Shown: positions 2,205-18,901 of the stretch, piece by piece | Position numbering within the stretch: the stretch's first letter is position 1 | How the letters are laid out: each line of letters opens with the position of its first letter | Assembly (NCBI GenBank): GCA_951812955.1 | Contig: OX638340.1 | Span: forward strand, 608,001-672,000 | Origin: an uncultured Gemmatimonadota bacterium | GTDB lineage: Bacteria > JAAXHH01 | DNA length: 64,000 bases | Reading direction: 5' to 3' | The notes under the pieces: generated by a model | What the model saw: the letters and a program-made list of their open reading frames with translations, nothing else | Databases searched by the model: none | Told to the model about the DNA's origin: nothing | Translations under genes and position numbers: made by a program

Positions 2205-2693
2205 GTGAAGAAGGTGGATGAGTTTACGGTCGAGGAAATCGGCGAGGAGTGGTTGCGCGAGCTTTACAAGGTCGTCGCGCTCCGGCGCGGTACCATGTTC
2301 AGGATGATTACTGAATCGACCCGTCTTCTCTTGTTCGGTAACGCGGGTGGCGCGGCGCTGATCATCGGCTTCATGAGCGCGGCAACGGGCGACCAGGCGT
2401 CCTCCTACCACTGGTTCAGCTTGTTTTCACTGCTCTCGTTCGCGCTAGGCACCCTTGCCTCCGCCCTGACGATGATCCTGGTGGCCGTAGTCTCGGTAAA
2501 AGAAGCCCACGGCGCCGAGAACGCGCTGAAACGTTTCGTCGATGGAGAAATCAACCGGTCACAGGTCATGTTCACCGTTGAAGAGCAAACCTTCCGTCTC
2601 GCCGATTCGGCCACCGTATCGGGTATTGTGAGTGCACTGGGGTTCATGGTGGGCGGGTTGGTCACGATAGCACTGCTTACGATTTTCTTCTAA
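2205..2693 (+). CDS. Hypothetical small integral membrane protein with about 3 TM segments. It is the first gene of a putative operon with the ZIP and CopA genes.
   Basis: GTG start at 2205, 162 aa, three hydrophobic helices. It is co-directional with the ZIP gene 74 nt downstream. No recognisable family. Confidence 0.4.
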   Translation: MKKVDEFTVEEIGEEWLRELYKVVALRRGTMFRMITESTRLLLFGNAGGAALIIGFMSAATGDQASSYHWFSLFSLLSFALGTLASALTMILVAVVSVKEAHGAENALKRFVDGEINRSQVMFTVEEQTFRLADSATVSGIVSALGFMVGGLVTIALLTIFF

Positions 2694-2766: not shown

Positions 2767-3642
2767 GTGTTGAATGATATTGTATTGCTTCTCCTGACCT
2801 ACTCGGCGGCGATCTTTGCCGTATCCCTTCTGGGCGGCAAACTTTCGGCCATCGTCACCATGACCCATTTCCGCACGCAACTGGTCATGAGTCTCGTGGC
2901 GGGGTTTCTGCTGGGCGTCGCCATGTACCACCTCCTGTTGCACAGCCTGGAGGATATCCCCGGACCGTATGCCGGTGAAATCGCCGTGGGGTGTGCGGTA
3001 CTTGGCGTCATCATGATTATCGTGCTGCTGCGAATATTCCGGTTTCATCAACACGAATTCGATCACGAAGCAGTGGAGACGCCGGACCAGCATGGCCACC
3101 ACGATCATCATGGTTCGGTAAACGTCAACCCCCGCAGCGTGTTCGGTGTCGCCACGGGTCTCGGGCTGCACACGGTAACCGAAGGTATCGCCCTCGGCGC
3201 GAGCATGCGTATCGGTTTGATTCATGAAGGGGAAACGATTCTTGTCGGCCTGGGGGTATTTCTGGCGATCATGCTGCATAAGCCGTTGGACGCGTACTCC
3301 ATTATAGGATTGATGAGAGTGTCGGGCTACGGCGACCGGGCTTGTACGTTGACTAACGTCGGTTTCGCCCTGTTGTGTCCGCTCATTACGATATTGACCT
3401 ACCTTGGCGTCGGCGTGTTGAGTGAACTCAACGAGCTGCATGTCGTGGGATACATCATGGCCTTCGCCGCCGGAGTCTTTCTGTGCATCTCCCTGAGCGA
3501 TCTGCTGCCCGAGATACAGTTTCACACTCACGACCGCGGAATACTCGCCGTCGCCTTCCTCATCGGGATCGGTCTCGCCTACGCCCTGTTCTATTTCGAA
3601 TCCGACACCATGCATGGGCTGGAGACGCTGGACACCCATTAG
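2767..3642 (+). CDS. ZIP-family divalent metal (zinc) transporter, ZupT-like, with a His-rich cytoplasmic loop.
   Basis: ZIP signature HTVTEGIALGAS. His-rich loop HQHEFDHEAVETPDQHGHHDHHGS. About 8 TM helices. 291 aa. Confidence 0.8.
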   Translation: MLNDIVLLLLTYSAAIFAVSLLGGKLSAIVTMTHFRTQLVMSLVAGFLLGVAMYHLLLHSLEDIPGPYAGEIAVGCAVLGVIMIIVLLRIFRFHQHEFDHEAVETPDQHGHHDHHGSVNVNPRSVFGVATGLGLHTVTEGIALGASMRIGLIHEGETILVGLGVFLAIMLHKPLDAYSIIGLMRVSGYGDRACTLTNVGFALLCPLITILTYLGVGVLSELNELHVVGYIMAFAAGVFLCISLSDLLPEIQFHTHDRGILAVAFLIGIGLAYALFYFESDTMHGLETLDTH

Positions 3643-3669: not shown

Positions 3670-5898
3670 ATGACGACAAACTCCACGCAAGCGCAGCACT
3701 TCGACGTGGATACCGAAACCCGCGTATTCCACGTAGAGGGCATGACCTGCAGCGCGTGTTCCGCGCGGGTTGAGAAAATCCTTTCCGATGTCCCGGGTGT
3801 CGCCGCCGCCCACGTAAACCTTGCCCTTGAACGTGCGACACTTACAGTCAGGCCAACCCTGGATGTTGACACGCTGGCCGGGCCCGTGGCCGATGCCGGA
3901 TACAGGCTGACTCCCGTACAGGATGATCGATACGAACCTGAAATGGCACGCGGTCAGGCAAGCCGGGATCGTGTCGCCATGATCACCGCGATCATCGTGA
4001 CCTCCCCCTTTCTTCTGCAGATGCTGAGCAGACTGCTGCAAAGCTGGACCGGCATCGAATGGCATATGCCGGTCTACGCGGAAGCGCTGGCGGCTACTGT
4101 TCTGCAGATCGGTATCGGCGCCCGTTATTACCGGAGCGCTTTTCACGCGTTGCGCGGCGGCGGCGCGAACATGGACGTCCTGGTGGCCCTGGGCACGTCG
4201 TCCGCCTTCGCATACAGCTGGTACCTGGTGATCAGTCAGGGTTCCGGCGCGTCGGGGCAACTCTACTTCGAAGCCTCGGCGATCATCATTACTCTCGTGC
4301 TCGTCGGCAAGCACATCGAAACCCGTGCGCGGCGAAGCGCGGGCCGTGCGATACGCGAGCTGCTCGCCATCCGGCCGGTTACCGCGCAGATACGAACGGC
4401 GGACGGTACGGAGTGGGAAATGCCGGTGCACGCTTTGAAGGTGGGTGACGTCGTGATCTGCCGCCCCGGCGACCGGGTAGCCGTGGACGGCGTCGTGCTG
4501 CGGGGAGAGGCCGAAGTCGACGAGGCCCTCATCACCGGCGAGAGCGTACCCGTTCCGAAAAGCCCTGCCGACACCGCGATTGCCGGATCGTTGAATATCA
4601 ACGGCTTCATGGAAATCGAGGCCCGAGCCGTCGGAAGTGATTCGACCCTGGGCCGGGTGATCCGCCTGGTCGAAAACGCCCAGGCCGCCAAACCAGCCAT
4701 CCAGCGCCTGGTGGATCGAATCAGCGGCGTATTCGTACCTGTTGTCGTAGGCCTGGCCGTGATCACTTTTGCCGGGTGGATCCTCGCAGGGGGCGATCTT
4801 GAAACTGCTTTGATAAATGCCGTTTCCGTCCTCGTCATCGCCTGTCCCTGCGCGCTGGGACTGGCGACACCGACGGCGATCGTGGCCGGCGCCGGAGCGG
4901 CGGCCCGGGCAGGTATCCTGGTTAAGGACATCGAATCCCTGGAACAGGCTCACGGGCTGACTCACATCGTATTCGACAAGACGGGAACGCTGACCGAAGG
5001 CAGGTCAGTCCTCGCGTCCCTGGTTCCCCTGGCCGACCGAGGCGAAGAGGAGTTGCTTTCAATCGCCGCGGGGCTGCAGCAGGGCAGTGAGCATCCCTTC
5101 GCCAGGGCATTCAAGTTGGCCGCGGCCGGACGGAGCGTGTCACCCGCCGGGGTTGAACGATTCAGAAGCGTGGTGGCGCGCGGCGTCGAGGGCGAAGTCG
5201 AAGGGACGCGTTACCTGCTCGGCAACCGAAGACTCTTCCACGAGGCCTGCGGGGATACGCCACCGCCAGATTCCCCGCAATCCGGCGGCGTGTCCGCGGT
5301 CTGGCTGGCCGCCCGAGGAGATGCCGGATGCGAATACCTGGCTCGCTTCGATCTCGTCGATGCATTACGCGCCGACGCGGCTGAAGTGGTTGACAGGCTC
5401 AGGAAGCTCGGGGTAAGGATCTTGCTCGTATCGGGCGATGCGGAATCCGTAGTGGCGCAGATCGGCAGCGCGGCGGGTGTCGACGAATCGTACGGCGGCG
5501 CCACGCCGGAAGACAAGGAGCGTATCGTCGGACGATTGACGGAGAGCGGGGCGAAGGTCTGCATGGTCGGCGACGGGATCAACGACGCGCCGGCCCTCGC
5601 CCGCGCAACCGTGGGTATCGCCATGGGTTCCGGTACGGACGTGGCGATGGAAACGGCAGCGATCACGCTGATGAGACCCGAACCGGTCCTGGTGGCCGGC
5701 GCCATCGACGTGAGTCGAAGGACAATCCGGAAAATAAAGCAGAATCTGTTCTGGGCGTTTATCTACAACGTAATCGGACTTCCGCTGGCCGCAACGGGAT
5801 TCCTCTTCCCGGCGCTCGCCGCGGCCATGATGGCCTGCTCCAGCATCAGCGTCGTGCTCAACTCTATGACGCTCCGCGCATGGCGGCCCGATTCGTAA
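3670..5898 (+). CDS. copA: Copper-translocating P1B-type ATPase.
   Basis: N-terminal HMA domain (GMTCSACSARVEKIL). CPC metal-binding motif in a TM helix (IACPCALGLATP). DKTGTLT phosphorylation site. GDGINDAPAL hinge. 742 aa. Confidence 0.9.
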   Translation: MTTNSTQAQHFDVDTETRVFHVEGMTCSACSARVEKILSDVPGVAAAHVNLALERATLTVRPTLDVDTLAGPVADAGYRLTPVQDDRYEPEMARGQASRDRVAMITAIIVTSPFLLQMLSRLLQSWTGIEWHMPVYAEALAATVLQIGIGARYYRSAFHALRGGGANMDVLVALGTSSAFAYSWYLVISQGSGASGQLYFEASAIIITLVLVGKHIETRARRSAGRAIRELLAIRPVTAQIRTADGTEWEMPVHALKVGDVVICRPGDRVAVDGVVLRGEAEVDEALITGESVPVPKSPADTAIAGSLNINGFMEIEARAVGSDSTLGRVIRLVENAQAAKPAIQRLVDRISGVFVPVVVGLAVITFAGWILAGGDLETALINAVSVLVIACPCALGLATPTAIVAGAGAAARAGILVKDIESLEQAHGLTHIVFDKTGTLTEGRSVLASLVPLADRGEEELLSIAAGLQQGSEHPFARAFKLAAAGRSVSPAGVERFRSVVARGVEGEVEGTRYLLGNRRLFHEACGDTPPPDSPQSGGVSAVWLAARGDAGCEYLARFDLVDALRADAAEVVDRLRKLGVRILLVSGDAESVVAQIGSAAGVDESYGGATPEDKERIVGRLTESGAKVCMVGDGINDAPALARATVGIAMGSGTDVAMETAAITLMRPEPVLVAGAIDVSRRTIRKIKQNLFWAFIYNVIGLPLAATGFLFPALAAAMMACSSISVVLNSMTLRAWRPDS

Positions 5899-5959
5899 TG
5901 GTAATACGCTGTTCCCGCGATGATCCGGTCATCCGACCGTTCGCCGTACTGATGAAACG

Positions 5960-8116
5960 CTAGGAGGATTCCTGCGGGGCTACGGCAGGTTCGAACGGAA
6001 GGCTAATGGCCATCTCGGTGTACTCCCCCGGTTCGGAATCCACCTCGATGTTACCCCCGTGCTCGCGGACGATATCGTTGGAGAGCGCCAGACCGAGGCC
6101 TGTGCCCTGGTCGGTAGGCTTGGTGGTAAAAAAGGGATTGAAGATCTTCTCCCGCACGTGGGGCGGTATCCCCTTGCCATTGTCCTTTATGCGCACGACG
6201 ATATGATCTTCCTCGCGGCGGGTGGACAGCCAGATCGCGGGTACGTATCCGCTTTCCGTATCCGGGTCTTCTCTTTTCTCGTTGGTCGCATGGCAGGCAT
6301 TGTTCACCATATTCAGAAACACACGGGCCATTTCCTGCGAAACGATCTCAATCTTTCCGAGATCGGGGTCGAAGTCCTCGTTGATTTCGAGTTGAAAATC
6401 CGGGTTGGATGCCCTGGCGGCGTGGTACGCCAGCCGGGCATGTTCTTCCAGTAACGCGTTTACGTCCGTGGACTGCTTGTCTCCCGATCCGCGCCCCATC
6501 TGCAACATGTCCCGCACGATCCGGTTGGCCCGTTCGCCGTGTTCCCTGATCCGGCGCAGATTATCCGTAAGATCACCGCCGATTTCCCGGATGAGATCGT
6601 TCTGCGCTTCGTCGAGCGAACCGCCGCCTTCAGGCAGTTCTTCATGCAGTTCCTCCAGCAGTTCTTCCGACGACTCCGCGAAGTTTTTTACGAAGTTCAG
6701 CGGGTTCTGGATTTCGTGGGCAACGCCTGCAGTTAGTTCGCCGAGGGCCGCCAGCTTTTCCCGCATGACGATCTGGTTCTGCGCCCGCTGCAGTTCGCCC
6801 AACGTTTCTTCCAGTTTGTCGTTCTTGCCCCGCAATTCCTCCGCGAGTTTTTCCACGAGGTTCAGCCGTTGCGCTTCGATCGAATGCAACCTGAACACTT
6901 CAAGCGCCGAGGCCATGTCCGCCACCTCGTCGCGGCCGTCCAGCTCCACTTTTTGTTTCAAGTCGCCCCCCGCCATGCGCCGCATGTGTTCGGACAGAAA
7001 ACCCAGGCGACGCAGCAGGACTTTTCCCACGAACAACCAGGCGATCAGCAAAGCGCCAATCAGGCTGACCGCGTTCAGAGCGAGCAGGAGCTGTCTTCCC
7101 ACCTGGATCGTCCGGGTCGACGCGACCGTCGCGGCCTGGGTGCTTGTCTGCGCCGAGTTTACGAGATTTTCCACCTCAGCAACCAGATCGACCGCGATAT
7201 TCCGATTGTTCTCTATCAGTGCTCGCTGCTGGTCAAGGAGTTCCAGATCTTCCGCACGAATCTGAAATATCTGCTCGTTTCCGCTTCCCAGTTCAAACAA
7301 TTGAGCGAATACCGGTTCGAGCCTCTGTCTCAGTGAAGACGTACCCAGGCCGGCGAGACTTCTTTCCACTCCCCCGCTGGCCGATTCGAACCGTTCCAGC
7401 AAGGGCTCTATCCTGTCGGCGTCGACGAGATTGAAGACATTCGACAGGATCCGGGTACTGACAGTCGCCTCGGTCTGCAATTCAGCGAGGTGGCGGTACC
7501 GCTGAAGTTCCAGCTCGGAAAGATACTCCGAACGGGGCGCCGCGGGCTCGTCGATGTTCCGGTAACCCGTCGTCGTGTAAAACAGCTGGTCGTCCAGGGC
7601 CGGGACAAGAATACCGGTCAGTTCGGATTGCAGCCGCCCCAGTTCCCTTCGTAACAACTGGCTTTGTTCTTCAAGGATGAAACGGCGCGCCACAGACTCC
7701 TCGATCATCCTGATGTTGGACATCAGCGTATTCCCGCTTTCGCTGATGCGTTGAAAGCGCTCGTTTTCCATGCTGTACGCGGCGATTGCCTCCAACTGAT
7801 CCGCGAAACTCTCCCGCTCGTTGGCAATACTCGCGGTCACGGCTTCGAAAGCCTCGGGGGTCTCCGCGGCCGCCAGACGAGGAGCGGCCGCCGCCAGCGT
7901 TCCGCTCCGCTGCGCCACCCCGAAGGCCGCGGCGATTTCGGGTACGGCTACCTCGTTCACTTCGCGCTGTGCTTCACCTACCTCGTTGAAGGCGAACCAC
8001 GCCACCAGACTTGCGAACATGGTGATCGCTACCGCAGTCCCGATACCCAGGTACAGCTGCCCCGAAATTCGGGACGGGCCCTTGTCGTATAACCACAGCA
8101 GCCACTTTTTGATCAT
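5960..8116 (-). CDS. Membrane sensor histidine kinase: TM1, an extracytoplasmic domain of about 300 aa, TM2, HAMP, coiled coil, HisKA, HATPase. No receiver domain.
   Basis: H-box ELTAGVAHEIQNPLNFV. G-boxes DNGKGIPPHVREKIFNPFFTTK...GTGLGLALS. HAMP segment RRLGFLSEHMRRMAGGDLKQKVEL. Its ATGA start overlaps the upstream PBP gene. Confidence 0.85.
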   Translation of the reverse strand: MIKKWLLWLYDKGPSRISGQLYLGIGTAVAITMFASLVAWFAFNEVGEAQREVNEVAVPEIAAAFGVAQRSGTLAAAAPRLAAAETPEAFEAVTASIANERESFADQLEAIAAYSMENERFQRISESGNTLMSNIRMIEESVARRFILEEQSQLLRRELGRLQSELTGILVPALDDQLFYTTTGYRNIDEPAAPRSEYLSELELQRYRHLAELQTEATVSTRILSNVFNLVDADRIEPLLERFESASGGVERSLAGLGTSSLRQRLEPVFAQLFELGSGNEQIFQIRAEDLELLDQQRALIENNRNIAVDLVAEVENLVNSAQTSTQAATVASTRTIQVGRQLLLALNAVSLIGALLIAWLFVGKVLLRRLGFLSEHMRRMAGGDLKQKVELDGRDEVADMASALEVFRLHSIEAQRLNLVEKLAEELRGKNDKLEETLGELQRAQNQIVMREKLAALGELTAGVAHEIQNPLNFVKNFAESSEELLEELHEELPEGGGSLDEAQNDLIREIGGDLTDNLRRIREHGERANRIVRDMLQMGRGSGDKQSTDVNALLEEHARLAYHAARASNPDFQLEINEDFDPDLGKIEIVSQEMARVFLNMVNNACHATNEKREDPDTESGYVPAIWLSTRREEDHIVVRIKDNGKGIPPHVREKIFNPFFTTKPTDQGTGLGLALSNDIVREHGGNIEVDSEPGEYTEMAISLPFEPAVAPQESS

Positions 8117-9327
8117 GGCATTACGTCCCGGAGGGTATTGATGGGATGGTAACGGCCATCCTTTCCGATCACCGTGAGGAAAACGGCGTCGGAACCCTGG
8201 TTGTCCCCGGCTCCGAATTCAAGACGAAGACCGCCCATATCGATGGTCCCGGCCTGGTTCAGACTTTCCACGAGACAAGTCCGCCTTACGTCGGGACCGC
8301 AGCCTTCGAGCGCGGTGATGGCCAGTCTGCCCGCCAGGTATCCTTCGAAAGAAACGAATCCGGGTGTGGAGCCGGGCGCGTGCGCGGCGAGTGCGCGGCG
8401 ATACCGCACTGCAATGGCAATATTGCCGGCTGCAGGGAAGGGTACTACCTGGGAAACCAGTACACCCTGGCCATCGGGACCCAGCTCACCGGCCAGGGCG
8501 TTGCTTCCCACGAAGGAGATCGTCGCGAACACCGGGTTGAATCCCACGTGCCGCGCCCATGAGATGAGCGTAGCGACCGGATGGTACGCGCCGATGACGA
8601 CCACGGCGTCCGGCTTGCCGGCCTGCAGATCTAGCAGCCCCGCCTTGATCGCCGTGGTGTTCCGGGGATACACGCCGATCGCCACCGGATCCAGGTTCCT
8701 TCGATCCAGCGCTCGCCGCACACCCCGGTAACCCACCCGGCCGAAGGAATCGTTCTGGTACATCACGCCTATGCGCGTGATCCCCAGATCGCGCGAAAGG
8801 CGGTCGACGATTTCCTCGGTTTCCTGGAAATAGGAGGCGCGTAGATTGATGACGCCGGTTTCCGTGTTGTCCCTTAGGAAGATCGCGCCGGTAAATGGCG
8901 CGATATAGGGCACACCGGCCTGCGACGTGATGGGAACGGCCGAACGGGAAGTCGGCGTGCCGACCGCGCCGATCAGCGCGAATACGCCTTCGTCCTCAAT
9001 CAGCTTGCGCGTGTTTGCGATGGCGGCTTCGGGTTCGTAGGCGTCGTCGAGCGTAATGAGCGCAAGCCGCCGTCCATGTACGCCGCCCCTGCGGTTTGCT
9101 TCCTGGAAGGCCGCCTCGATGCCGAGGTTCATGTTGCGGCCGAGTTCCCTGGCAGGACCGCTGAACGCCGCCGACTGTCCGAACAGAATTTGTTCGTCCG
9201 TTACGCCGGGTTCTTCGATCTGGGAGGCGTTCGCGCCGCTGTGTGCTGGAATTAAAGCGGGAGAGAACGCCGTCGCACCAAGGGCGAGTAGTATGGCGAC
9301 CGCCCAGTGGTCACGCGTTCGTCTCAT
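8113..9327 (-). CDS. Periplasmic binding protein type 1 (LivJ-like), translationally coupled to the sensor kinase. Putative ligand-sensing partner.
   Basis: Signal peptide MRRTRDHWAVAILLALGATAFSPA. About 50% identity by eye with the PBP at 1017-2180 (FGQSAAFSGPA, GVHGRRL, DDAYEPE, LIGAVGTPTS). Four-nt overlaps with both neighbouring genes. Confidence 0.75.
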   Translation of the reverse strand: MRRTRDHWAVAILLALGATAFSPALIPAHSGANASQIEEPGVTDEQILFGQSAAFSGPARELGRNMNLGIEAAFQEANRRGGVHGRRLALITLDDAYEPEAAIANTRKLIEDEGVFALIGAVGTPTSRSAVPITSQAGVPYIAPFTGAIFLRDNTETGVINLRASYFQETEEIVDRLSRDLGITRIGVMYQNDSFGRVGYRGVRRALDRRNLDPVAIGVYPRNTTAIKAGLLDLQAGKPDAVVVIGAYHPVATLISWARHVGFNPVFATISFVGSNALAGELGPDGQGVLVSQVVPFPAAGNIAIAVRYRRALAAHAPGSTPGFVSFEGYLAGRLAITALEGCGPDVRRTCLVESLNQAGTIDMGGLRLEFGAGDNQGSDAVFLTVIGKDGRYHPINTLRDVMP

Positions 9328-9749
9328 CCATTTTCCTTCCGCTTGACGATCGTCAGGACGTTCTTGTCGTTTTCCCGGCGGTAGCTCAGTTCATCCATCA
9401 TGGTCCGAACCAGATAGATGCCGAGACCGCCGACGGGCCGGTCTTCAACCCCAGACTCGATATCCGGTTCCGGGGAGTCGGTAAGCGGGTTGAACGCCGG
9501 GCCTTCGTCCCGCAACTCGATGGTCAACGTTTCGGAATCGGAGTCCAGTACCACTTCGAATTCGTGTTCCGGGTCGTTGGCGTGGCCGTGGGTAACGATG
9601 TTGACGCCCAGTTCCTCAAGGACCAGCTTGACCTGGTACACCATGCCCGGCGGCCATTCTTCCGACTCGCCAAGTTCGTCCACGGCCTCGTAAATCCGTT
9701 CGAGTTGGTCCAGTCTGGTAGGCAGGCGAAGAGAGAGTTTTCTACGCAT
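9324..9749 (-). CDS. RsbW/SpoIIAB-like anti-sigma factor serine protein kinase (HATPase_c_2).
   Basis: 141 aa. GHKL ATPase motifs (EELGVNIVTHG, DEGPAFNP, GGLGIYLVRTMMDEL), typical of partner-switching kinases. Confidence 0.7.
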   Translation of the reverse strand: MRRKLSLRLPTRLDQLERIYEAVDELGESEEWPPGMVYQVKLVLEELGVNIVTHGHANDPEHEFEVVLDSDSETLTIELRDEGPAFNPLTDSPEPDIESGVEDRPVGGLGIYLVRTMMDELSYRRENDKNVLTIVKRKENG

Positions 9750-9757
9750 GGGCGAAC

Positions 9758-10915
9758 CTAGCGTTGAAGCACGGTGACACAGGTTATATCATCCGACTGC
9801 GCCGTCTCCCCCGCGAAATCATGAACCGCTTTGAACACGGCCTTGTTCGCTTCTTCCGTGGTGGCGGGAGGGGAATCCGAGAATACCGCCTGCAGGCGAT
9901 CCATACCGAATTCCTCGCCGTCGGCGTTCATGGCTTCGGTAACTCCGTCCGTGTAGAGCACAAGCAAATCGCCGGGCGAGACCGAGATGGCAGACTGGCC
10001 AAACTCGACGCCGGGGAAGACCCCGAGGGCCATCCCGTCGGTTCCGGGGAGCAGGGTCGAAGAGCCATCGGGATGGACTACGAGCGGGGGATTGTGTCCT
10101 CCATTGGCGTAGTCGACCTGGCCGGTTTCGGGGGTGTACACCGCGTAGAACGTGGTGACGAACATAGCCGCTTCGTTTTCTTCAGTAAGGAGATCGTTGA
10201 CTTCCTTCAATACGGCGCCGGGATCCATGGCCCCGATTGCCGATCCCTTCAGCAGGGTCCGGCTCGACATCATGAACAGGGCCGCCGGCACGCCCTTGTC
10301 GGATACATCGGCGATGGCCAGGCCGATTCTACCGCCAGGCAAGGGAAAGACGTCGAAAAAATCGCCGCCGACTTCTCGGGCGGGCTCCATGTTCGCGAAG
10401 ATCGTGCAGTGATCGGAATCGGGAAACTCGGTCGGCAGAATCGACTGCTGCATCTTGCTGGCCACGTTCAGTTCGTTCTGCAGCCGAACCAGCTTATCCC
10501 GCGACTCCAGGGCTTCGCGCCATTCCTCCATGTTCTTCAGGGTGCGTTCGATGGTTACACGAAGGTCCTGGAAATCGATAGGCTTGGTAATGAAGTCGAA
10601 AGCACCCCGGTTCATGGCCGTCCGGATGTTCTTCATGTCCCCGTATGCGGATACCACGACGGCGCGGATGTCGGGGGCGATGTTCGGTATCTGCGCCAAC
10701 AGGGTCAGACCGTCCATCCTGGGCATGTTGATATCCGATAACACCATATCGATATCGGGGATCTCGCTCAGACGTTCCAGGGCTTCCACGCCGTTCTGGG
10801 CGAAAAACAGGGTGTATTGGCCGGAACGGACATCACGGCGCAATCGCTGACGCATGAGGTGTTCGAGATCCGGCTCATCGTCCACTACAAGGATTTTATA
10901 CGGTGTCTGCGTCAT
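9758..10915 (-). CDS. Response-regulator receiver fused to a PP2C/SpoIIE serine phosphatase (RsbU-like phosphatase of a partner-switching system).
   Basis: Receiver motifs ILVVDDEPD...DMVLSDINMPRMDG...TKP. PP2C motifs (GGDFFDV, AIADVSDKGVPAALFM, YTDGVTEA, ITCVTVLQ). Confidence 0.8.
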   Translation of the reverse strand: MTQTPYKILVVDDEPDLEHLMRQRLRRDVRSGQYTLFFAQNGVEALERLSEIPDIDMVLSDINMPRMDGLTLLAQIPNIAPDIRAVVVSAYGDMKNIRTAMNRGAFDFITKPIDFQDLRVTIERTLKNMEEWREALESRDKLVRLQNELNVASKMQQSILPTEFPDSDHCTIFANMEPAREVGGDFFDVFPLPGGRIGLAIADVSDKGVPAALFMMSSRTLLKGSAIGAMDPGAVLKEVNDLLTEENEAAMFVTTFYAVYTPETGQVDYANGGHNPPLVVHPDGSSTLLPGTDGMALGVFPGVEFGQSAISVSPGDLLVLYTDGVTEAMNADGEEFGMDRLQAVFSDSPPATTEEANKAVFKAVHDFAGETAQSDDITCVTVLQR

Positions 10916-11007
10916 CGCATCCCTGGACGCCGGCGCATCCGTTCGCTATCGACGCGCCCGGCATTTGAGCAGGTTTCTACCGTGAAGCGATCGGCCCGCA
11001 CGGCTAC

Positions 11008-11346
11008 TTACTGACCGATCTTATCCACGGCTTCCGCCTGGGTATCGTGGATGGAAATGATCTTGTCAAATCCGCTGATTTCGAAGACTTCACGGATCGG
11101 GTCCGACAGGGAGCACAGCGCGAAAGCGGCATTCCGCTTCTGAAGCAATCTAGCGATCAGCAGGATGACCCTCAGCCCGGCGCTGCTTATATAGGACAGC
11201 GCTCCGAAATCAAGCAACACCTTGCTGTCGTCTTCCGCAATGGCGCCGTTAAGCGCATCCTCGAATTCCCGGGCGTTCGCACCGTCGATTCGACCTTCAA
11301 CCTTCGCAATCAGTACCTCGTTTGCTCGGTCGACACTGATCTCCAT
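11008..11346 (-). CDS. STAS-domain anti-sigma-factor antagonist (SpoIIAA/RsbV-like).
   Basis: 112 aa. The conserved phosphorylatable Ser context is LDFGALSYISSAGLRVIL, matching the DSSGL motif. A strong SD (AGGGGGA) lies 9 nt before the ATG. Confidence 0.8.
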   Translation of the reverse strand: MEISVDRANEVLIAKVEGRIDGANAREFEDALNGAIAEDDSKVLLDFGALSYISSAGLRVILLIARLLQKRNAAFALCSLSDPIREVFEISGFDKIISIHDTQAEAVDKIGQ

Positions 11347-11485
11347 GAAACCATCCCCCTTTATCAGGTTTATAAAATCACCCTATTTGGCAAAAAGGCT
11401 TTATGTACTCCAATGGTAAAACTCGGTTGCGTATCCGGCAGGTGACCCATTGCCGGCCTGATCAATTCCCTGATACGGTACCTAC

Positions 11486-12277
11486 CTATCCCGAGGCGAG
11501 AATGGGATGCAACGGTCCACCGAACGGCTCGCCCGGTTTCAGTGTCTGGTCGCCTCCTGCGTCCCATCGGCCGTTGTAGTTCACGTATTCGGGAATATAG
11601 ATGATCGCCAGGGCTCTCCTGGGCGAATCGGTACGGTTCGATGTGGCGTAATGGAACGTGCATCCGTGATGAAAGGTGACGCCGCCTGCTTCCATTTCCA
11701 TTATGACGGGTTCAACCTCGTCATCGACGTCCGTACCTTCGATTTCTTTCAGTACGCTCGCACCCTCCGTACTCAAGGGCACGGGCGCCAGCCGGCCGTA
11801 TTGGTGCGAGCCTGGTATGAACTGCATGCAGCCGTTGTCTACAGTGACATCGTCCACGGCGATCCAGGCCGACAGCGCACCCACCTGCTCCATGGGCCAG
11901 TAAGGAGCGTCCTGATGCCAGTTGGTTTCCTTGCTCCGCTCGCCACCAGGCTTGATCAGTCCATGGTCATGGTAGATGACCAGGCGTTTGCACTTCGATA
12001 TCTTACGGGCGATCTCCGCCAGGCGCGCGTCAAAGGAATACTTGCGGATTACTTCGTGGTCCACCCACAGGTTGACCATCTGGTTGAATACGCGGTTGTA
12101 ATCCTCGTCCGTTTCACGCCCGCCGCCCAGTATGCGTTCCCTCTTCTCCGCTACCGTTTTGTCCAGCGCTTCTCTCAGTTCCGTCACTTCATCCTTCGAG
12201 AAGAACCTCGGAATCCGGAGATAACCATTCTCCTGAAAAAACTCAACCTCTTCGGCGCCAATGTGATTTGGATTCAT
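11486..12277 (-). CDS. PhyH-family Fe(II)/2-oxoglutarate-dependent dioxygenase (paralog 1 of 4).
   Basis: HxD facial-triad motif in WHQDAPYW and a distal His in FHHGCTFH. 263 aa. Confidence 0.7.
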   Translation of the reverse strand: MNPNHIGAEEVEFFQENGYLRIPRFFSKDEVTELREALDKTVAEKRERILGGGRETDEDYNRVFNQMVNLWVDHEVIRKYSFDARLAEIARKISKCKRLVIYHDHGLIKPGGERSKETNWHQDAPYWPMEQVGALSAWIAVDDVTVDNGCMQFIPGSHQYGRLAPVPLSTEGASVLKEIEGTDVDDEVEPVIMEMEAGGVTFHHGCTFHYATSNRTDSPRRALAIIYIPEYVNYNGRWDAGGDQTLKPGEPFGGPLHPILASG

Positions 12278-12501: not shown

Positions 12502-13479
12502 ATGCCGCAAGACCGTTATCAAATCGGTGTCCAGGACTATATCGACTACCACCGGGATGGCTACCTGGTTGCCCGGGGACTCGTACCCGACACGGAAGTG
12601 GAGGAAATCCGCCGCCATACCGAGGAACTGATGCATGGCAGGATCATCATCGACGGTGTTGAGCCACCGCCGCCTGGCCTTACTCCCGAGCAGATGGGGC
12701 AGCACTGGCTGCGTATACACATGCTCCACCGGAAGCATGAACTGCATGAACGGTACCTGCTGCAACCCCGGATTCTGGATGTGCTAGAAGCCCTGATCGG
12801 TCCCGATGTGTCGGCGCTCCAGACCATGTTGTTTCTCAAGCCGCCGGGACGTGAGGGCCAGGGTTACCACCAGGACGCCTACTATATCCCCACCTATCCC
12901 GATACGCTGATCGGTTCGTGGCTGGCCGTGGATCCGGCGGATGAAGAGAATGGCTGCATGAAGGTCATACCGGGATCACACCATGAACCAATCTATCCGG
13001 ACGAAAACAAGCTGGGCCAAAACCATACCGACGGATCCATCGAGGATCTTGCCGTGATCGCGGGCGCCAGCGCGACGGATGAATCCGTGAACGGACTGAC
13101 GCCTGTCGCGGCAAAATACGGTGGCCGCGAGGTGGCTGCCTGCATGGCCCCGGGCGACGTCCTGTTCTTCCACAGCCATCTCCTGCACCGGTCGCACGCC
13201 AACCGGACGCAGACGCGTTTCCGCAGGGCCTTTGTAAGCCACTATTGTAACGCGAGGTCATTGGTGCCGTGGAACCACGGCGCCGAATTCGAGGGGACGA
13301 CCGCGAACAATCTCCATATCCTCGCCCGGGGAAATACTCACCTTGACTACGCGTTGCCGAAGTTCGGCACCCCGTGCGACGCGCTCAATCCCAGGGAGAC
13401 GGCCCGGGGTGTCCGCCCGGCGCGCATGATGGGCGGCATGCCTGCTTCGACCGTAAAGGGTGTTATGGTAACACGCTGA
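12502..13479 (+). CDS. PhyH-family Fe(II)/2-oxoglutarate-dependent dioxygenase (paralog 2), divergent from paralog 1.
   Basis: GYHQDAYY (HxD) and FHSHLLHRS (distal His). 325 aa. Confidence 0.7.
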   Translation: MPQDRYQIGVQDYIDYHRDGYLVARGLVPDTEVEEIRRHTEELMHGRIIIDGVEPPPPGLTPEQMGQHWLRIHMLHRKHELHERYLLQPRILDVLEALIGPDVSALQTMLFLKPPGREGQGYHQDAYYIPTYPDTLIGSWLAVDPADEENGCMKVIPGSHHEPIYPDENKLGQNHTDGSIEDLAVIAGASATDESVNGLTPVAAKYGGREVAACMAPGDVLFFHSHLLHRSHANRTQTRFRRAFVSHYCNARSLVPWNHGAEFEGTTANNLHILARGNTHLDYALPKFGTPCDALNPRETARGVRPARMMGGMPASTVKGVMVTR

Positions 13480-13564: not shown

Positions 13565-14845
13565 CTAAGCCCTGAAGAGATTCCGCGCCTTGTGAATGGC
13601 GGCGATCATGACATCGATCTCTTCGGAGGTGTTGTAGAAGTAGACACTTGCGCGCGCCGTAGCGCCATAGGGCGTGCCGAGTCGCCGCATCAGCGGTTGC
13701 GCGCAGTGATGACCCGCGCGGATGGCGACCCCCTGCCGATCCAGCACGGTGGACAGATCGCTGGGATGCATGTCTTCCAGGTTGAAAGAAACGGCGCCTC
13801 CCCTGCCCGGCGCGTGGCCGTAGACGGTCAGGCCGTCAATTTCCTCGAGCCGTCCGACCATGTAGTCCGTCAGCGCTCTTTCATGGGTATGAATCTGCTC
13901 CATGCCGACAGCTTCGAGGTAATCCACCACGTCTCCGAACACGATGGCATGGGCGATATTCGGGGTGCCTGCTTCGAATTTCTCTGGTATGTCCGCACAG
14001 GTAAACCCATCGAGGCGGACTTCGTCGATCATCGATCCCCCGCCCATGTACGGATCCATGGCTTCCAGCAGTTCCTCACGCCCGTAGAGTCCGCCGATAC
14101 CGGTCGGACCGCACATCTTGTGGCCGGAGAAGGCAAAGAAGTCGCAATCCAGACGCTGTACGTCCACCGGCATGTGAGGAACGCTTTGCGCGGCGTCTAA
14201 GAAGACCAGCGCGCTGGCCTGGCGGGCCCGCGTTACGATGTCGTCGATGGGGTTGACGGTACCGAGTACGTTCGACATGTGTGCGAGGGCGACGATGCGC
14301 GTCTTCTCCGAGATCAGCCGGTCCGCCTGTTCCATGTCGAGGGACCCGTCGTCTCGAATGTCGAAATACCGGATGACAGCGCCGGTTTCCTTCGCGAGCA
14401 TCTGCCAGGGCACGATATTGCTATGGTGCTCCATGACGGACAGCACGATTTCGTCCCCTGCCCGGACGTTCTTCCGGCCCCAGGCAGTGGCGACCAGGTT
14501 TATGCCTTCGGTGGTGTTGCGGACGAACACCAGGTTCCGGGCCGGCGCGTTGATGAATCGAGCCACTCGCTCCCGGGCGCCTTCGTAGGCATTGGTCGCT
14601 TCCTCGCTGAGCGTGTGGAGGCCGCGGTGTACATTGGCGTTGAGCCTGGTATAGTAATCGTCGAGGGCGTCGAGTACGACCCGGGGTTTCTGCGACGTCG
14701 CGCTGTTGTCCAGGTAGACCAGCGGTTTCCCGTGTATCCTGCGATCTAGAATTGGAAAATCACCGCGGTACCGCAGGGCGTGTTCGTCCGACCGGCGTAC
14801 CGCTTCATCCAGTTCTCGTGGCGTCTCAACCAGCGTTTCCGACAT
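13565..14845 (-). CDS. sufS: Cysteine desulfurase SufS (class V aminotransferase, group II).
   Basis: PLP-Lys context FSGHKMCGPTGIGGLYG. SufS active-site signature RAGHHCAQP. The ORF extends to 14890, but the ATG at 14845 (MSETLV) avoids overlap with the upstream gene. Confidence 0.9.
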   Translation of the reverse strand: MSETLVETPRELDEAVRRSDEHALRYRGDFPILDRRIHGKPLVYLDNSATSQKPRVVLDALDDYYTRLNANVHRGLHTLSEEATNAYEGARERVARFINAPARNLVFVRNTTEGINLVATAWGRKNVRAGDEIVLSVMEHHSNIVPWQMLAKETGAVIRYFDIRDDGSLDMEQADRLISEKTRIVALAHMSNVLGTVNPIDDIVTRARQASALVFLDAAQSVPHMPVDVQRLDCDFFAFSGHKMCGPTGIGGLYGREELLEAMDPYMGGGSMIDEVRLDGFTCADIPEKFEAGTPNIAHAIVFGDVVDYLEAVGMEQIHTHERALTDYMVGRLEEIDGLTVYGHAPGRGGAVSFNLEDMHPSDLSTVLDRQGVAIRAGHHCAQPLMRRLGTPYGATARASVYFYNTSEEIDVMIAAIHKARNLFRA

Positions 14846-14867
14846 AGATCCCTTACCAGCCAGGTGT

Positions 14868-15182
14868 TCAGTAGTCGATGCCAAGTTCAAGCTTGGCGTC
14901 TTCGGTCATCATGTCGATATGCCAGGTCGGTTCCCAGACGATCTCGATCAGCGCGTCCGAGACCTGTTCCAGGTCCTTCACCTTGGTCTCCACCTCGGCG
15001 GGGAGCGACTGGGCCGCCGGACAGTTCGGCGAGGTGAGCGTCATCTTGATGTTCGTCATACCGTCCTGTTGCACGTCGATCTCGTAGATCAGTCCCATTT
15101 CGTAGATGTTGACCGGGATCTCGGGATCGTAACACGACTTCAATACGTCCACGATCTGCTCTTTAACGGCATCCGTATCCAT
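14868..15182 (-). CDS. DUF59 / MIP18-family Fe-S assembly protein (SufT-like).
   Basis: 104 aa. DUF59 motifs (VLKSCYDPEIPVNIYEMGLIY...TLTSPNCPAAQSL). Embedded between sufD and sufS. Confidence 0.7.
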   Translation of the reverse strand: MDTDAVKEQIVDVLKSCYDPEIPVNIYEMGLIYEIDVQQDGMTNIKMTLTSPNCPAAQSLPAEVETKVKDLEQVSDALIEIVWEPTWHIDMMTEDAKLELGIDY

Positions 15183-15213
15183 CCATAGACTCCTGTAAGC
15201 GTGAATGCGCCGG

Positions 15214-16584: not shown

Positions 16585-16612
16585 TTCGTGTTCCCGTTCT
16601 CCCTGTGATCGC

Positions 16613-18868: not shown

Positions 18869-18901
18869 TTTCTCTCCTTGAAACGAATGTAACCCGCCGC
18901 G

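What the first reader, a model, noticed from the sequence alone, without database searches (positions are those of the whole stretch)
5960..11346. Five-gene partner-switching module whose input is a periplasmic-binding-protein-coupled histidine kinase
On the minus strand the genes run STAS antagonist, then a 92-bp gap, then receiver-PP2C phosphatase, RsbW-like Ser kinase, PBP1 periplasmic binding protein and sensor histidine kinase. The last four are fused by 4-8 nt overlaps (ATGA junctions). No sigma factor gene is in the operon. The kinase has no receiver domain, and the receiver is on the phosphatase. The implied circuit is: periplasmic ligand binds the PBP, which acts on the HK; the HK phosphorylates the receiver-PP2C; PP2C dephosphorylates the STAS antagonist; the antagonist sequesters the RsbW-like kinase. 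This combines an ABC-type solute-binding protein as sensor with an RsbU/RsbV/RsbW-type output. It is a recognisable relative of the HptB-HsbR-HsbA and chlamydial RsbU systems, but the operon-encoded PBP and the absent sigma make its target and ligand unknown.
Basis: partly seen in the sequence, partly recalled or inferred. Interest (0 to 1): 0.65.

Follow-up and report, generated by a model that had tools for sequence, protein, structure and literature searches.

The report
Binding-protein-fed kinase driving a sigma-less partner switch
A real, tightly packed five-gene signalling cassette in which a periplasmic solute-binding protein probably feeds a TorS-like histidine kinase that controls a phosphatase/kinase/STAS partner switch; the cassette recurs almost unchanged in MAGs labelled as many different phyla, several from sponge microbiome studies, and elsewhere often sits beside an unusual ammonium-channel gene.

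Summary
The five minus-strand genes exist exactly at 5960-11346. All have strong family matches: STAS, receiver+PP2C, RsbW-like kinase, Peripla_BP_6 binding protein, and histidine kinase. One detail is wrong: PP2C and RsbW are separated by an 8-nt gap, not an overlap.

New points:
- The kinase's periplasmic domain is TorS-like by Pfam, profile and fold. TorS is the kinase that senses through the binding protein TorT.
- The PP2C-RsbW-PBP-HK block keeps its order in 82 of 86 related loci. These carry at least nine phylum- or class-level labels. Identity is 50-83% and the flanks are unrelated.
- STAS is nearby in 76 of 86 loci, but its position varies.
- All catalytic and phospho-acceptor residues are invariant.
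- No sigma factor or Liv permease gene accompanies the cassette.
- In 41 of 80 loci an Amt gene adjoins STAS or the kinase. It mostly belongs to a subfamily with no adjacent glnK that is closest to ammonium receptors.

The closest precedents are TorT/TorS and B. cereus RsbK/RsbY/RsbV/RsbW. Ligand and output are unknown; the comparative data point to nitrogen or ammonium handling. I rate it a new variant of a known kind, interest about 0.6.

The parts
11008..11346 (-). STAS-domain antagonist, 112 aa. The predicted phospho-acceptor is Ser55 (codon 11182-11184).
   Evidence: Pfam STAS 3.7e-21 and TIGR00377 79.6 bits, above its 53.45 cut-off. It aligns to TM1442 and SpoIIAA with S55 on the DS*xGL serine. 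Y52, S54, S55, G57 and L58 are invariant in 73 homologues.
10916..11007 (-). 92-nt spacer between the STAS and REC-PP2C genes.
   Evidence: Read from the sequence. No promoter or terminator signal above chance. The RNA fold z-score is -1.87, not significant.
9758..10915 (-). Response-regulator PP2C phosphatase: receiver at residues 8-122, helical linker, PPM/SpoIIE domain at 193-381. The phospho-acceptor is Asp61 (codon 10733-10735).
   Evidence: Pfam Response_reg 2.8e-25 plus SpoIIE 8.9e-54. D12, D13, D61, S89, K111 and PP2C D185, D203, D323, D375 are invariant in 80 homologues. The best solved relative is 3EQ2/3F7A, deposited as 'Probable two-component response regulator' and identified as Pseudomonas aeruginosa RssB in PMC12143880.
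9324..9749 (-). RsbW/SpoIIAB-like serine kinase (GHKL), 141 aa.
   Evidence: Pfam HATPase_c_2 4.1e-29. The best solved relatives are RsbW 6M36 and SpoIIAB 1TH8. N-box E46/N50, G1 D81/G83/F86 and G2 G107-G110 are invariant or nearly so in 81 homologues.
8113..9327 (-). Periplasmic solute-binding protein (Peripla_BP_6, LivJ fold) with an N-terminal signal-peptide-like segment and no lipobox Cys. Its stop overlaps the HK start by 4 nt (ATGA).
   Evidence: Pfam 2.7e-53. Best PDB hit is 4KV7 at 7.7e-69; LivJ is only 23% identical and there is no acidic residue at the LivJ Glu226 position. Identity is about 66-74% in the listed homologues outside the window's own clade and 55-69% to the loci labelled as other phyla. 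No Liv permease is adjacent in any annotated locus.
5960..8116 (-). Membrane sensor histidine kinase, 718 aa: TM1 (about residues 21-43), periplasmic domain, TM2 (about 343-364), HAMP, HisKA (His467, codon 6716-6718), HATPase_c. No receiver or HPt domain.
   Evidence: Pfam and NCBIfam. H467, E468, N471 and P472 are invariant in 81 homologues.
7136..7945 (-). TorS-like periplasmic sensor domain of the kinase (residues 58-327).
   Evidence: PF21689 36.8 bits against a cut-off of 27. TIGR02956 (TorS) matches residues 17-447. The family profile's top PDB hits are TorS sensors 3O1H and 3I9Y over the full domain, E about 0.004. The AF2 model has pLDDT about 90 in residues 60-320, and its top five Foldseek hits are all TorS sensor structures, including the TorS-TorT complexes (3I9Y TMt 0.82).

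Best explanation
This is a self-contained signalling cassette that joins two known designs.

Input half, inferred from homology and gene linkage. The secreted Peripla_BP_6 protein binds an unidentified small molecule in the periplasm. It docks on the TorS-like double four-helix-bundle domain of the membrane kinase, as TorT does on TorS. This changes the balance of kinase and phosphatase activity of the HisKA kinase, which carries the HExxN motif. The kinase has no receiver or HPt domain, and the only receiver encoded nearby is on the PP2C protein. So His467 most likely passes phosphate directly to Asp61 of the REC-PP2C protein.

Switch half, inferred by analogy with RsbY, RsbU and HsbR. Receiver phosphorylation changes PP2C activity through the helical linker, probably switching it on. 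The PP2C removes phosphate from Ser55 of the STAS protein. The RsbW-like kinase puts that phosphate on. Unphosphorylated STAS binds the RsbW-like protein.

Output, the least certain part. No sigma factor gene travels with the cassette. The state of the STAS/RsbW pair is therefore the output. I think it more likely acts on a non-sigma target connected with ammonium or nitrogen handling than on a distant sigma factor. The reason is that orthologous STAS genes, often with RsbW, repeatedly sit directly beside an Amt gene that has no adjacent glnK and resembles ammonium receptors. Some also sit beside a CP-ATP-grasp/Alpha-E/transglutaminase amidoligase cluster. The window itself has no Amt gene in 64 kb, so this link is by orthology only.

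The cassette behaves as a discrete unit that has moved between distant lineages. Several of the carrier MAG sets come from sponge microbiome studies.
For: Domains and coordinates.

Catalytic and acceptor residues are invariant in 73-81 homologues.

TorS-like sensor, three independent lines: Pfam PF21689; a family profile against the PDB; an AF2 model with Foldseek, whose top five hits are TorS sensors including TorS-TorT complexes. TorS/TorT is an established kinase stimulated by a solute-binding protein (PMC8050422).

Gene linkage:
- PP2C-RsbW-PBP-HK is contiguous and co-oriented in 82 of 86 loci. STAS is on the held stretch in 76 of 86.
- 4-nt start/stop overlaps: PBP/HK 74/80, RsbW/PBP 66/80, PP2C/RsbW 55/80.
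- Similarity between loci with different phylum labels is confined to the cassette, and the flanks are unrelated.
- Cross-label identity of 76-83% exceeds the median within Latescibacterota of 65-70%.

No transporter partner: no Liv permease or ATPase genes in the annotated neighbourhoods. The one recurrent ABC ATPase checked is PotA-type with its own binding protein. Near relatives of the 4KV7 PBP sequence are also followed directly by HK genes.

Precedent for a two-component system driving REC-PP2C and then RsbV/RsbW: B. cereus RsbK/RsbY (PMC4574943). REC-PPM with a coiled-coil linker is a common architecture (PMC12143880).

No sigma: the RpoE and SigF probes find nothing in the window and a hit in only 1 of 86 loci.

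Amt link:
- Amt lies within 8 kb in 41/80 loci, in three distinct arrangements across seven taxon labels.
- 36 of the 41 Amts form one subfamily whose best solved relatives are the ammonium receptors Sd-Amt1 and Ks-Amt5.
- Reciprocal metagenome scan: this Amt subfamily has glnK adjacent in 0/33 loci and STAS present in 10/33. Its nearest Amt relatives have glnK in 35/47 and STAS in 0/47.
Against: - Nothing here is biochemical.
- The TorS similarity is remote: 16-19% identity and profile E about 0.004. The PBP belongs to a different family (Peripla_BP_6) from TorT (Peripla_BP_1).
- HK genes next to the 4KV7-type PBPs have unrelated N-termini. PBP-HK pairing therefore does not require a TorS fold, and docking geometry cannot be transferred.
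- The sign of every step is unknown (ligand turning the kinase on or off; REC~P turning PP2C on or off).
- The window lineage has no Amt within 64 kb.
- 39 of 80 related loci also lack an Amt nearby. In the reciprocal scan 23 of 33 special Amt loci show no STAS on the held stretch.
- The Amt subfamily keeps only part of the published receptor signature.
- A sigma factor encoded elsewhere cannot be excluded. The two single-sequence probes could miss divergent ECF sigmas.
- Spirochaetia loci lack RsbW and STAS nearby, and four of five Gammaproteobacteria loci lack STAS.
- Locus and contig counts are not phylogenetically independent.
- The taxon names are submitters' MAG labels and were not checked.
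Confidence: 0.68

Rival explanations
1. Classical anti-sigma output. The input works as described, but the RsbW-like protein sequesters a SigB/SigF-type sigma factor encoded elsewhere in the genome. Dephosphorylated STAS frees that sigma factor to switch on a regulon.
For: The kinase's closest solved relatives are genuine anti-sigma factors, RsbW 6M36 and SpoIIAB 1TH8. NCBIfam's best hits are RsbW and SpoIIAB models, and the STAS protein passes the anti-sigma-factor-antagonist superfamily cut-off. The best-studied two-component-coupled switch, RsbK/RsbY, ends on sigma B.
Against: No sigma-70-family gene was found in the 64-kb window, and only 1 of 86 related loci has one, an RpoD-sized ORF. 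None appears in the Pfam-annotated +-10 kb of L001-L006. No sigma gene emerges as a recurrent neighbour in the clustering. Matches to the RsbW and SpoIIAB equivalog models are far below cut-off: 36 against 145 bits, and 31 against 135. The cassette appears to move between phyla as a unit, which is awkward for a switch that depends on a resident sigma factor.
Confidence: 0.3
2. The PBP is an ordinary transport protein. It delivers an amino acid or similar solute to a Liv-type ABC importer encoded elsewhere. Its position next to the kinase reflects co-regulation, not sensing through the kinase.
For: It has the Peripla_BP_6 fold. Automatic annotation of homologues reads 'ABC transporter substrate-binding protein'. 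The best NCBIfam hit is the LivJ-type subfamily, at 52.9 bits against a cut-off of 477. Some binding proteins serve both transport and signalling (PMC8050422).
Against: No permease or ATPase partner lies in the window up to 41 kb, or in the annotated neighbourhoods. The PBP stop overlaps the HK start in 74/80 loci. The kinase sensor is of the TorS type, which works through a binding protein. The sister PBP clade (4KV7) is also paired with HK genes. There is no acidic residue at the position of LivJ Glu226, which binds the amino group; the LivJ sequence and its residue roles are from memory.
Confidence: 0.07
3. The REC-PP2C protein acts as an RssB-like proteolysis adaptor or pseudo-phosphatase rather than as a STAS phosphatase.
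For: The best NCBIfam hit is Pseudomonas RssB, and the best solved relative is 3EQ2/3F7A, identified as P. aeruginosa RssB in PMC12143880.
Against: The score of 116.9 bits is far below the 700-bit equivalog cut-off. The PP2C domain is full length (SpoIIE profile positions 1-188 of 192), and all four metal-binding aspartates checked are invariant in 80 homologues. A cognate kinase and STAS substrate are encoded alongside.
Confidence: 0.04

Closest known systems
TorT-TorS (E. coli, Vibrio parahaemolyticus): TMAO sensing through a periplasmic binding protein
   Same: The kinase has a TorS-type periplasmic double four-helix bundle followed by HAMP. A signalling-only periplasmic binding protein is encoded beside it, with no transporter.
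   Different: The binding protein here is Peripla_BP_6 (LivJ-like), not the Peripla_BP_1 type of TorT. The kinase is not a hybrid: it has no receiver or HPt domain. The regulator is a PP2C phosphatase, not the DNA-binding TorR. The ligand is unknown.
Bacillus cereus RsbK-RsbY-RsbV-RsbW-sigma B
   Same: A sensor histidine kinase controls a receiver-PP2C response regulator, which dephosphorylates a STAS antagonist opposed by an RsbW kinase (PMC4574943).
   Different: RsbK is a hybrid kinase regulated by the methyltransferase RsbM and has no binding-protein input. sigB is the output of that system. In the cassette studied here no sigma factor or methyltransferase gene recurs as a neighbour.
Pseudomonas aeruginosa HptB-HsbR-HsbA
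   Same: It is a phosphorelay-controlled, receiver-containing PP2C/kinase pair acting on a STAS protein whose targets include non-sigma proteins (PMC6482189, listed; the details are my own knowledge).
   Different: HsbR fuses receiver, PP2C and kinase in one polypeptide and is fed by an Hpt protein. Here the kinase is a separate 141-aa protein and the histidine kinase is dedicated and adjacent.
PDB 4KV7, 'probable Leu/Ile/Val-binding protein' (the sequence's closest named relatives are Rhodopirellula species)
   Same: It is the closest solved relative of the PBP (E 7.7e-69). It shares the family motifs FG.S.A.SGPA, VGTPT, FTGA and SFVG. Genes for its near relatives are also followed at once by histidine kinase genes.
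   Different: The adjacent kinases there are a PAS kinase or a hybrid kinase with unrelated N-termini. No PP2C, RsbW or STAS genes are nearby.
Sensor Amt proteins Sd-Amt1 and Ks-Amt5 (ammonium receptors)
   Same: These are the best solved relatives of the Amt subfamily that accompanies the cassette in other genomes: 225 and 185 bits, against about 90 for AmtB. The similarity includes the C-terminal RVS..VE.LG segment, and the twin histidines are kept.
   Different: The cassette-linked Amts are stand-alone, with no fused GGDEF or kinase module. They keep only part of the published N1/N2 receptor signature: C..E..N..[LI]Y..T..S instead of Q..E..N..D[FT]..T..[ST]. No such gene is in this window.
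STAS-only regulators acting on non-sigma targets (MlaB with MlaF, SypA, SiaC)
   Same: A single-domain STAS protein may itself be the output onto a transporter or enzyme (PMC7367683 and PMC8256260, listed).
   Different: No interaction partner is known here, and the analogy is untested.

Membership tests
RsbU/RsbV/RsbW-type partner-switching module | STAS antagonist with a conserved phosphorylatable serine | tested here: met
   TIGR00377 scores 79.6 bits against a 53.45 cut-off. Ser55 aligns with the TM1442/SpoIIAA phospho-serine and is invariant in 73 homologues.
RsbU/RsbV/RsbW-type partner-switching module | GHKL serine kinase/anti-sigma protein with N, G1 and G2 boxes | tested here: met
   HATPase_c_2 4.1e-29. 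E46, N50, D81, F86 and G107/G108/G110 are invariant in 81 homologues and G83 is nearly so (78/81). The closest solved relatives are RsbW and SpoIIAB.
RsbU/RsbV/RsbW-type partner-switching module | PP2C/SpoIIE phosphatase with intact metal-binding aspartates | tested here: met
   SpoIIE 8.9e-54. D185, D203, D323 and D375 are invariant in 80 homologues.
RsbU/RsbV/RsbW-type partner-switching module | Cognate sigma factor (or other defined target) encoded with the module | tested here: not met
   No sigma-70-family ORF in the 64-kb window and a hit in only 1 of 86 loci. None in the Pfam-annotated neighbourhoods.
RsbU/RsbV/RsbW-type partner-switching module | Reversible Ser phosphorylation of STAS and mutually exclusive complexes | not testable with these tools
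   Needs biochemistry.
TorT/TorS-type kinase dependent on a binding protein | TorS-type periplasmic sensor domain | tested here: met
   PF21689 above cut-off. Profile hits to 3O1H and 3I9Y. The top five Foldseek hits are TorS sensors.
TorT/TorS-type kinase dependent on a binding protein | Adjacent gene for a periplasmic binding protein with no transporter | tested here: met
   ATGA overlap in the window and in 74/80 loci. No permease genes nearby.
TorT/TorS-type kinase dependent on a binding protein | Binding protein of the TorT family (Peripla_BP_1) | tested here: not met
   The PBP is Peripla_BP_6. TorT is listed as Peripla_BP_1.
TorT/TorS-type kinase dependent on a binding protein | Hybrid kinase (receiver plus HPt) with an OmpR-type regulator TorR | tested here: not met
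   The HK has no receiver or HPt domain. The only receiver nearby is on the PP2C protein.
TorT/TorS-type kinase dependent on a binding protein | Physical binding of the binding protein to the sensor domain | not testable with these tools
   No complex prediction or experiment is available.
B. cereus RsbK/RsbY-type partner switch coupled to a two-component system | REC-PP2C response regulator with a dedicated histidine kinase | tested here: met
   PMC4574943.
B. cereus RsbK/RsbY-type partner switch coupled to a two-component system | Hybrid kinase with the RsbM methyltransferase and sigB as output | tested here: not met
   The HK has no receiver. No sigma or methyltransferase gene is conserved nearby.
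HptB-HsbR-HsbA | Receiver, PP2C and kinase fused in one protein, fed by an Hpt protein | tested here: not met
   The kinase is a separate ORF. The longer Spirochaetia PP2C ORF turned out to have an N-terminal extension, not a fusion. No Hpt domain was found.
Liv-type ABC importer binding protein | Encoded with LivHMGF permease and ATPase genes | tested here: not met
   Absent from the annotated part of the window (1-41 kb) and from the annotated loci. No such family is recurrent.
Liv-type ABC importer binding protein | LivJ-like residues that bind the amino-acid backbone | tested here: inconclusive
   The Tyr202 equivalent is kept (Y248) and Ser79 becomes T124. No acidic residue sits at Glu226 (F272/S271). 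The alignment is only 23% identical, and the LivJ sequence and its residue roles are from memory.
RssB (Pseudomonas) adaptor | NCBIfam equivalog score | tested here: not met
   116.9 bits against a cut-off of 700.
Ammonium receptor (AmR) class of Amt proteins, for the Amt linked to the cassette in other loci | N1/N2 signature QX6EX15NX2D[FT]X54-60TX2[ST] | tested here: not met
   35 of the 36 subfamily members show C..E..N..[LI]Y (32 LY, 3 IY) and all 36 keep T..S. The motif search mis-anchored on the remaining one, L076. The closest solved relatives are nevertheless Sd-Amt1 and Ks-Amt5.

The most novel reading that the evidence does not exclude
The cassette is the input side of an ammonium-handling switch that does not use PII. 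In this reading the STAS protein, with its RsbW-like kinase, takes the place of GlnK as the cytoplasmic partner of an Amt protein that resembles ammonium receptors. The phosphorylation state of STAS is set by a periplasmic, probably nitrogen-containing, metabolite sensed through the binding protein and the TorS-like kinase. The cell would then integrate external organic nitrogen with ammonium. The module, sometimes together with a CP-ATP-grasp/Alpha-E/transglutaminase amidoligase set, has spread by horizontal transfer among symbionts of marine sponges.
Probability: 0.22. Interest if true: 0.85.

Novelty: new variant of a known kind. Interest (0 to 1): 0.6.

Why it matters
Partner-switching modules without a sigma factor are common in genomes, but their inputs and outputs are mostly unknown. 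This cassette offers a defined, testable input: a soluble binding protein and a TorS-type kinase. It also has a small, invariant set of phospho-sites (H467, D61, S55).

It would add a LivJ-fold (Peripla_BP_6) protein to the few binding proteins known to act purely as kinase co-receptors. The 2021 review lists only an archaeal chemotaxis example for this fold.

Its conservation suggests that it senses something important in that habitat. Identity is 50-83% across MAGs with at least nine phylum- or class-level labels, several from sponge microbiome studies.

The recurrent pairing of its STAS gene with an Amt gene that lacks an adjacent glnK and resembles ammonium receptors gives a concrete hypothesis. 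That hypothesis concerns a route of ammonium sensing or regulation that bypasses PII proteins.

Tried and rejected
- Exact-sequence look-up of the window HK and of P0001 found nothing on record.
- Rfam and tRNA scans of the window were empty.
- The promoter/terminator scan of 5700-11800 gave counts at chance level. The 92-nt STAS-PP2C spacer does not fold significantly better than shuffles.
- A single-sequence search of the HK N-terminus against PDB sequences found only HAMP matches. TorS appeared only with a family profile and by fold.
- I suspected that the long Spirochaetia PP2C ORFs were HsbR-like PP2C-kinase fusions. Pfam shows an N-terminal extension instead, and RsbW is simply absent there.
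- I suspected that the recurrent 'ABC' neighbours were Liv components. The one checked is a PotA-type ATPase with its own SBP_bac_8 protein.
- I tested whether the kinases next to 4KV7-type PBPs share the TorS-like sensor. They do not.
- I tested the published ammonium-receptor signature on the linked Amts. It is only partly present.
- Literature searches found no description of this cassette. I searched for partner switching with a periplasmic binding protein, and for STAS with an ammonium transporter.
- Searches for the MAG accession numbers found nothing. The sponge origin is documented only for the jk18x bins. The PNGco and SB0670 name prefixes occur among bins that one search's paper groups as Entoporibacteria, so sponge origin is inferred for those and for the other sets.
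- Sigma-factor detection relied on two probe sequences recalled from memory (RpoE, SigF). Divergent ECF sigmas could have been missed.

Full report
**1. Is it there?**

Yes. Five minus-strand ORFs occupy exactly 5960-11346: STAS (11008-11346), receiver+PP2C (9758-10915), an RsbW-like GHKL kinase (9324-9749), a Peripla_BP_6 binding protein (8113-9327) and a membrane histidine kinase (5960-8116).

Pfam E-values run from 1e-21 to 1e-54. The kinase has HAMP, HisKA and HATPase_c but no receiver or HPt domain. The only receiver in the neighbourhood is on the PP2C protein.

- a 92-nt gap after STAS;
- a 4-nt ATGA overlap at RsbW/PBP;
- a 4-nt ATGA overlap at PBP/HK.

PP2C and RsbW are separated by 8 nt in this genome. 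Most relatives do overlap there (55/80).

The window gave no tRNA or Rfam hit. By its closest relatives it comes from a MAG lineage labelled Candidatus Latescibacterota (HK 85-91% identical). Some older records label close homologues Gemmatimonadetes.

**2. The kinase input is TorS-like**

The periplasmic domain (residues about 58-327) passes the Pfam TorS_sensor_domain cut-off (36.8 against 27 bits). The TorS TIGRFAM aligns to residues 17-447.

A single-sequence search of the PDB saw only the HAMP domain. A profile of 23 family members from different phyla placed the TorS sensor structures 3O1H and 3I9Y on top over the full domain (E about 0.004). An AlphaFold2 model has pLDDT about 90 across residues 60-320. 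Its five best Foldseek matches are all TorS sensor structures, three of them TorS-TorT complexes (3I9Y TMt 0.82).

TorS is the textbook kinase that perceives its signal through a periplasmic binding protein (PMC8050422).

The similarity is remote (16-19% identity). The binding protein belongs to a different family from TorT, so the docking mode cannot be assumed.

**3. The binding protein**

It has a signal-peptide-like N-terminus without a lipobox cysteine (sequence). Its closest solved relative is the structural-genomics entry 4KV7 (E 7.7e-69). LivJ is only 23% identical.

In a pairwise alignment the LivJ Tyr202 equivalent is kept, but no acidic residue sits where LivJ Glu226 binds the amino group. 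The LivJ sequence and the roles of its residues are from my memory, so this is only a weak hint that the ligand is not a free amino acid bound in the LivJ manner.

No Liv-type permease or ATPase gene lies in the annotated part of the window (1-41 kb) or within 10 kb in six Pfam-annotated relatives. None emerges as a recurrent neighbour. The one recurrent ABC ATPase I checked belongs to a PotA-type system with its own binding protein.

PBPs closely related to 4KV7, whose named homologues are Rhodopirellula species, are also followed immediately by histidine kinase genes. One is a PAS kinase with an 8-nt overlap and the other is a hybrid kinase. This PBP clade therefore seems to be a family of kinase co-receptors. 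Those kinases have unrelated N-termini.

**4. Conservation and spread**

The best 80 were fetched. Counting six earlier loci as well:
- PP2C-RsbW-PBP-HK is contiguous and co-oriented in 82 of 86 loci.
- A STAS gene is on the held stretch in 76 of 86. Its position varies: upstream on the same strand as here, convergent right after the kinase, or a few kb away.
- Start/stop overlaps of 4 nt are kept at PBP/HK in 74/80, RsbW/PBP in 66/80 and PP2C/RsbW in 55/80 loci.

All residues needed for the proposed chemistry are invariant or nearly so in 73-81 homologues:
- HK: H467, E468, N471 and, in 80 of 81, P472
- receiver: D12, D13, D61, S89, K111
- PP2C: D185, D203, D323, D375
- RsbW: E46, N50, D81, F86 and G107/G108/G110 (all invariant), plus G83 (78 of 81)
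- STAS: S54, S55

The carriers are MAGs labelled Latescibacterota, Gemmatimonadota, Acidobacteriota, Chloroflexota/Dehalococcoidia, Alpha- and Gammaproteobacteria, Verrucomicrobiota (Opitutales), Spirochaetia, Rhodothermales and others. Identity between labels reaches 76-83%, for example Latescibacterota against Opitutales. The median within Latescibacterota is only 65-70%.

Similarity between such loci stops at the cassette borders, and the cassette's GC content follows its host. I read this as old horizontal spread of a discrete unit. One caveat is that the MAG labels were not verified.

The jk18x bins are documented Ircinia sponge MAGs. The PNGco and SB0670 name prefixes occur among bins that one search's paper groups as Entoporibacteria. 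The RHO/IRC/COS names fit a sponge MAG study. A sponge origin for these and for the many OZ/CBD records is inference.

The sensor domain family itself is modest in size. It has 85, 283 and 752 representatives at E<=1e-30, 1e-10 and 1e-3 among 1.84 billion 50%-identity clusters.

**5. The output**

No sigma-70-family ORF was detected in the window, and only 1 of 86 loci has one. The probes were two single sequences, so they are limited.

Clustering all flanking ORFs showed only two recurrent companions across phyla.

*Amt gene.* It is present in 41/80 loci, in three arrangements:
- 19 as Amt then STAS in tandem, mostly 32-51 nt apart;
- 9 as HK then Amt in tandem, 24-45 nt apart in seven of the nine (two have gaps of 182 and 311 nt);
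- 9 embedded in the second companion cluster (the remaining 4 loci have an Amt gene elsewhere on the held stretch).

*CP_ATPgrasp/Alpha-E/transglutaminase cluster.* It is present in 16/80 loci. The abundances of these domains in marine metagenomes were reported to track urea-metabolism domains (PMC3597751).

Thirty-six of the 41 Amts form one extremely conserved subfamily with a characteristic C-terminal tail. Their best solved relatives are the ammonium receptors Sd-Amt1 (225 bits) and Ks-Amt5 (185 bits), against about 90 bits for AmtB. They keep the twin histidines but only part of the published receptor signature. None has a PII gene beside it. The two alphaproteobacterial loci with ordinary AmtB-type Amts do have glnK between Amt and STAS.

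A reciprocal scan of metagenome contigs used this Amt subfamily as the query:

| Amt group | loci | adjacent glnK | STAS on the stretch |
|---|---|---|---|
| special subfamily | 33 | 0 | 10 (8 within 1.5 kb) |
| next-closest Amts | 47 | 35 | 0 |

In the special group STAS sometimes occurs with RsbW but without the PBP/HK part. Fisher p is 1e-12 for glnK and 6e-5 for STAS, but the contigs are not independent.

So STAS, with RsbW, is the cassette part most tightly tied to this Amt. The window itself has no Amt or PII gene in 64 kb. For this locus the link is therefore by orthology only.

**6. Most likely mechanism**

The proposed chain is:
1. Periplasmic ligand binds the PBP.
2. The PBP acts on the TorS-like HK.
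3. His467 passes phosphate to Asp61 of REC-PP2C.
4. PP2C activity changes through the helical linker, by analogy with RsbY and the REC-PPM architecture.
5. The PP2C dephosphorylates STAS-Ser55, opposing the RsbW-like kinase.
6. STAS and RsbW form a complex.

Steps up to the phospho-sites are supported by homology, invariant residues and gene linkage. None is shown biochemically, and the sign of each step is unknown.

For the output I favour a non-sigma target related to ammonium or nitrogen handling (about 0.4). A sigma factor encoded elsewhere comes next (about 0.3), and the remainder is unknown.

**7. Comparison with known systems and novelty**

The input resembles TorT/TorS, but with a different binding-protein family, a non-hybrid kinase and a different regulator. 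The switch resembles B. cereus RsbK/RsbY/RsbV/RsbW, but without a hybrid kinase, methyltransferase or sigma factor. HptB/HsbR/HsbA and chlamydial RsbU are looser analogies.

The 2021 review of signalling binding proteins lists no Peripla_BP_6 protein working with a sensor kinase. Its only Peripla_BP_6 example is the archaeal BasB/BasT chemotaxis pair. My literature searches found no description of this cassette or of a STAS-Amt pairing. Every component is a known kind, and it is the combination and its associations that are new. I rate it a new variant of a known kind, interest about 0.6.

Noticed in passing
window 894-2180 (+), with 2205-2693 (+): There is a second orphan Peripla_BP_6 gene, a paralogue of the cassette PBP (232 bits). 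It is followed by a 162-aa ORF with no Pfam match. By synteny with L004 it is preceded by Band_7/SPFH genes. No ABC permease lies beside it either, and it is conserved in the closest Latescibacterota relatives.
   Followed up: partly
related loci L013-L083 (e.g. L031:10199-11581, L013:10524-11906); metagenome loci L089-L121, L162: A very conserved stand-alone Amt subfamily carries the motif CAGFTMLE[AS]GSVRTKNASMICLKNIGLY and the tail VRVS..VE.LGQD..ELGIEAYPEFVLMPEEDD. Its best solved relatives are the ammonium receptors Sd-Amt1 and Ks-Amt5. It never has glnK beside it (0/33, against 35/47 in its nearest Amt relatives). It often has STAS and/or RsbW genes beside it, and it keeps only part of the published receptor signature.
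   Followed up: yes
related loci, e.g. L041:10312-11745, L025:14105-15950, L162:5753-11240: A CP_ATPgrasp / Alpha-E / transglutaminase cluster directly follows the kinase gene or surrounds the special Amt in 16 of 80 loci, across five taxon labels. By synteny with L004 and L005 it would lie about 4 kb beyond the left edge of this window.
   Followed up: partly
L044:11262-13690, L046:10195-12323: In two alphaproteobacterial loci an ordinary AmtB-type Amt with the canonical HGE.GY tail, a PII/GlnK gene and the STAS gene lie in one co-directional row, convergent with the cassette.
   Followed up: partly
L052, L066 (Spirochaetia); L070, L077, L084, L085 (Gammaproteobacteria): These are reduced versions of the cassette. 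The Spirochaetia loci have only REC-PP2C (with a roughly 100-aa N-terminal extension), PBP and HK, with no RsbW or STAS within 8 kb. Four of five gammaproteobacterial loci lack STAS nearby.
   Followed up: partly
L075, L083, L063, L101, L105: Parts are duplicated or rearranged. L075 and L083 have a second STAS/PP2C/RsbW(/HK) set. L063 has two STAS genes flanking the cassette. The metagenome contigs L101 and L105 show RsbW-Amt-STAS-STAS and STAS-Amt-STAS.
   Followed up: no
window 2767-3642 (+) and 3670-5898 (+): A ZIP metal permease gene and an HMA/E1-E2 P-type ATPase gene converge on the 3' end of the kinase gene. The same pair sits there in L004 and L005.
   Followed up: no
window 11486-12277 (-), 12502-13479 (+): Two PhyH-family dioxygenase genes lie just upstream of STAS. 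PhyH genes also flank the cassette in distant Latescibacterota loci (L001-L003), although the STAS gene sits elsewhere there.
   Followed up: no
window 13565-19420 (-); 19676-21937 (+); 39054-40841 (+): A Suf Fe-S assembly operon has an Rrf2 regulator at its head. There are two BNR-repeat (sialidase-like) proteins, and a protein with a lamin-tail domain plus a FlgD_ig domain.
   Followed up: no
L087:8001-12078, L088:8001-12004: Near relatives (about 59-95% identical) of the solved protein 4KV7, annotated as a Leu/Ile/Val-binding protein, are each followed at once by a histidine kinase gene: a PAS kinase in L087 and a hybrid kinase in L088. This suggests the solved protein is a kinase co-receptor rather than a transport protein.
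   Followed up: partly
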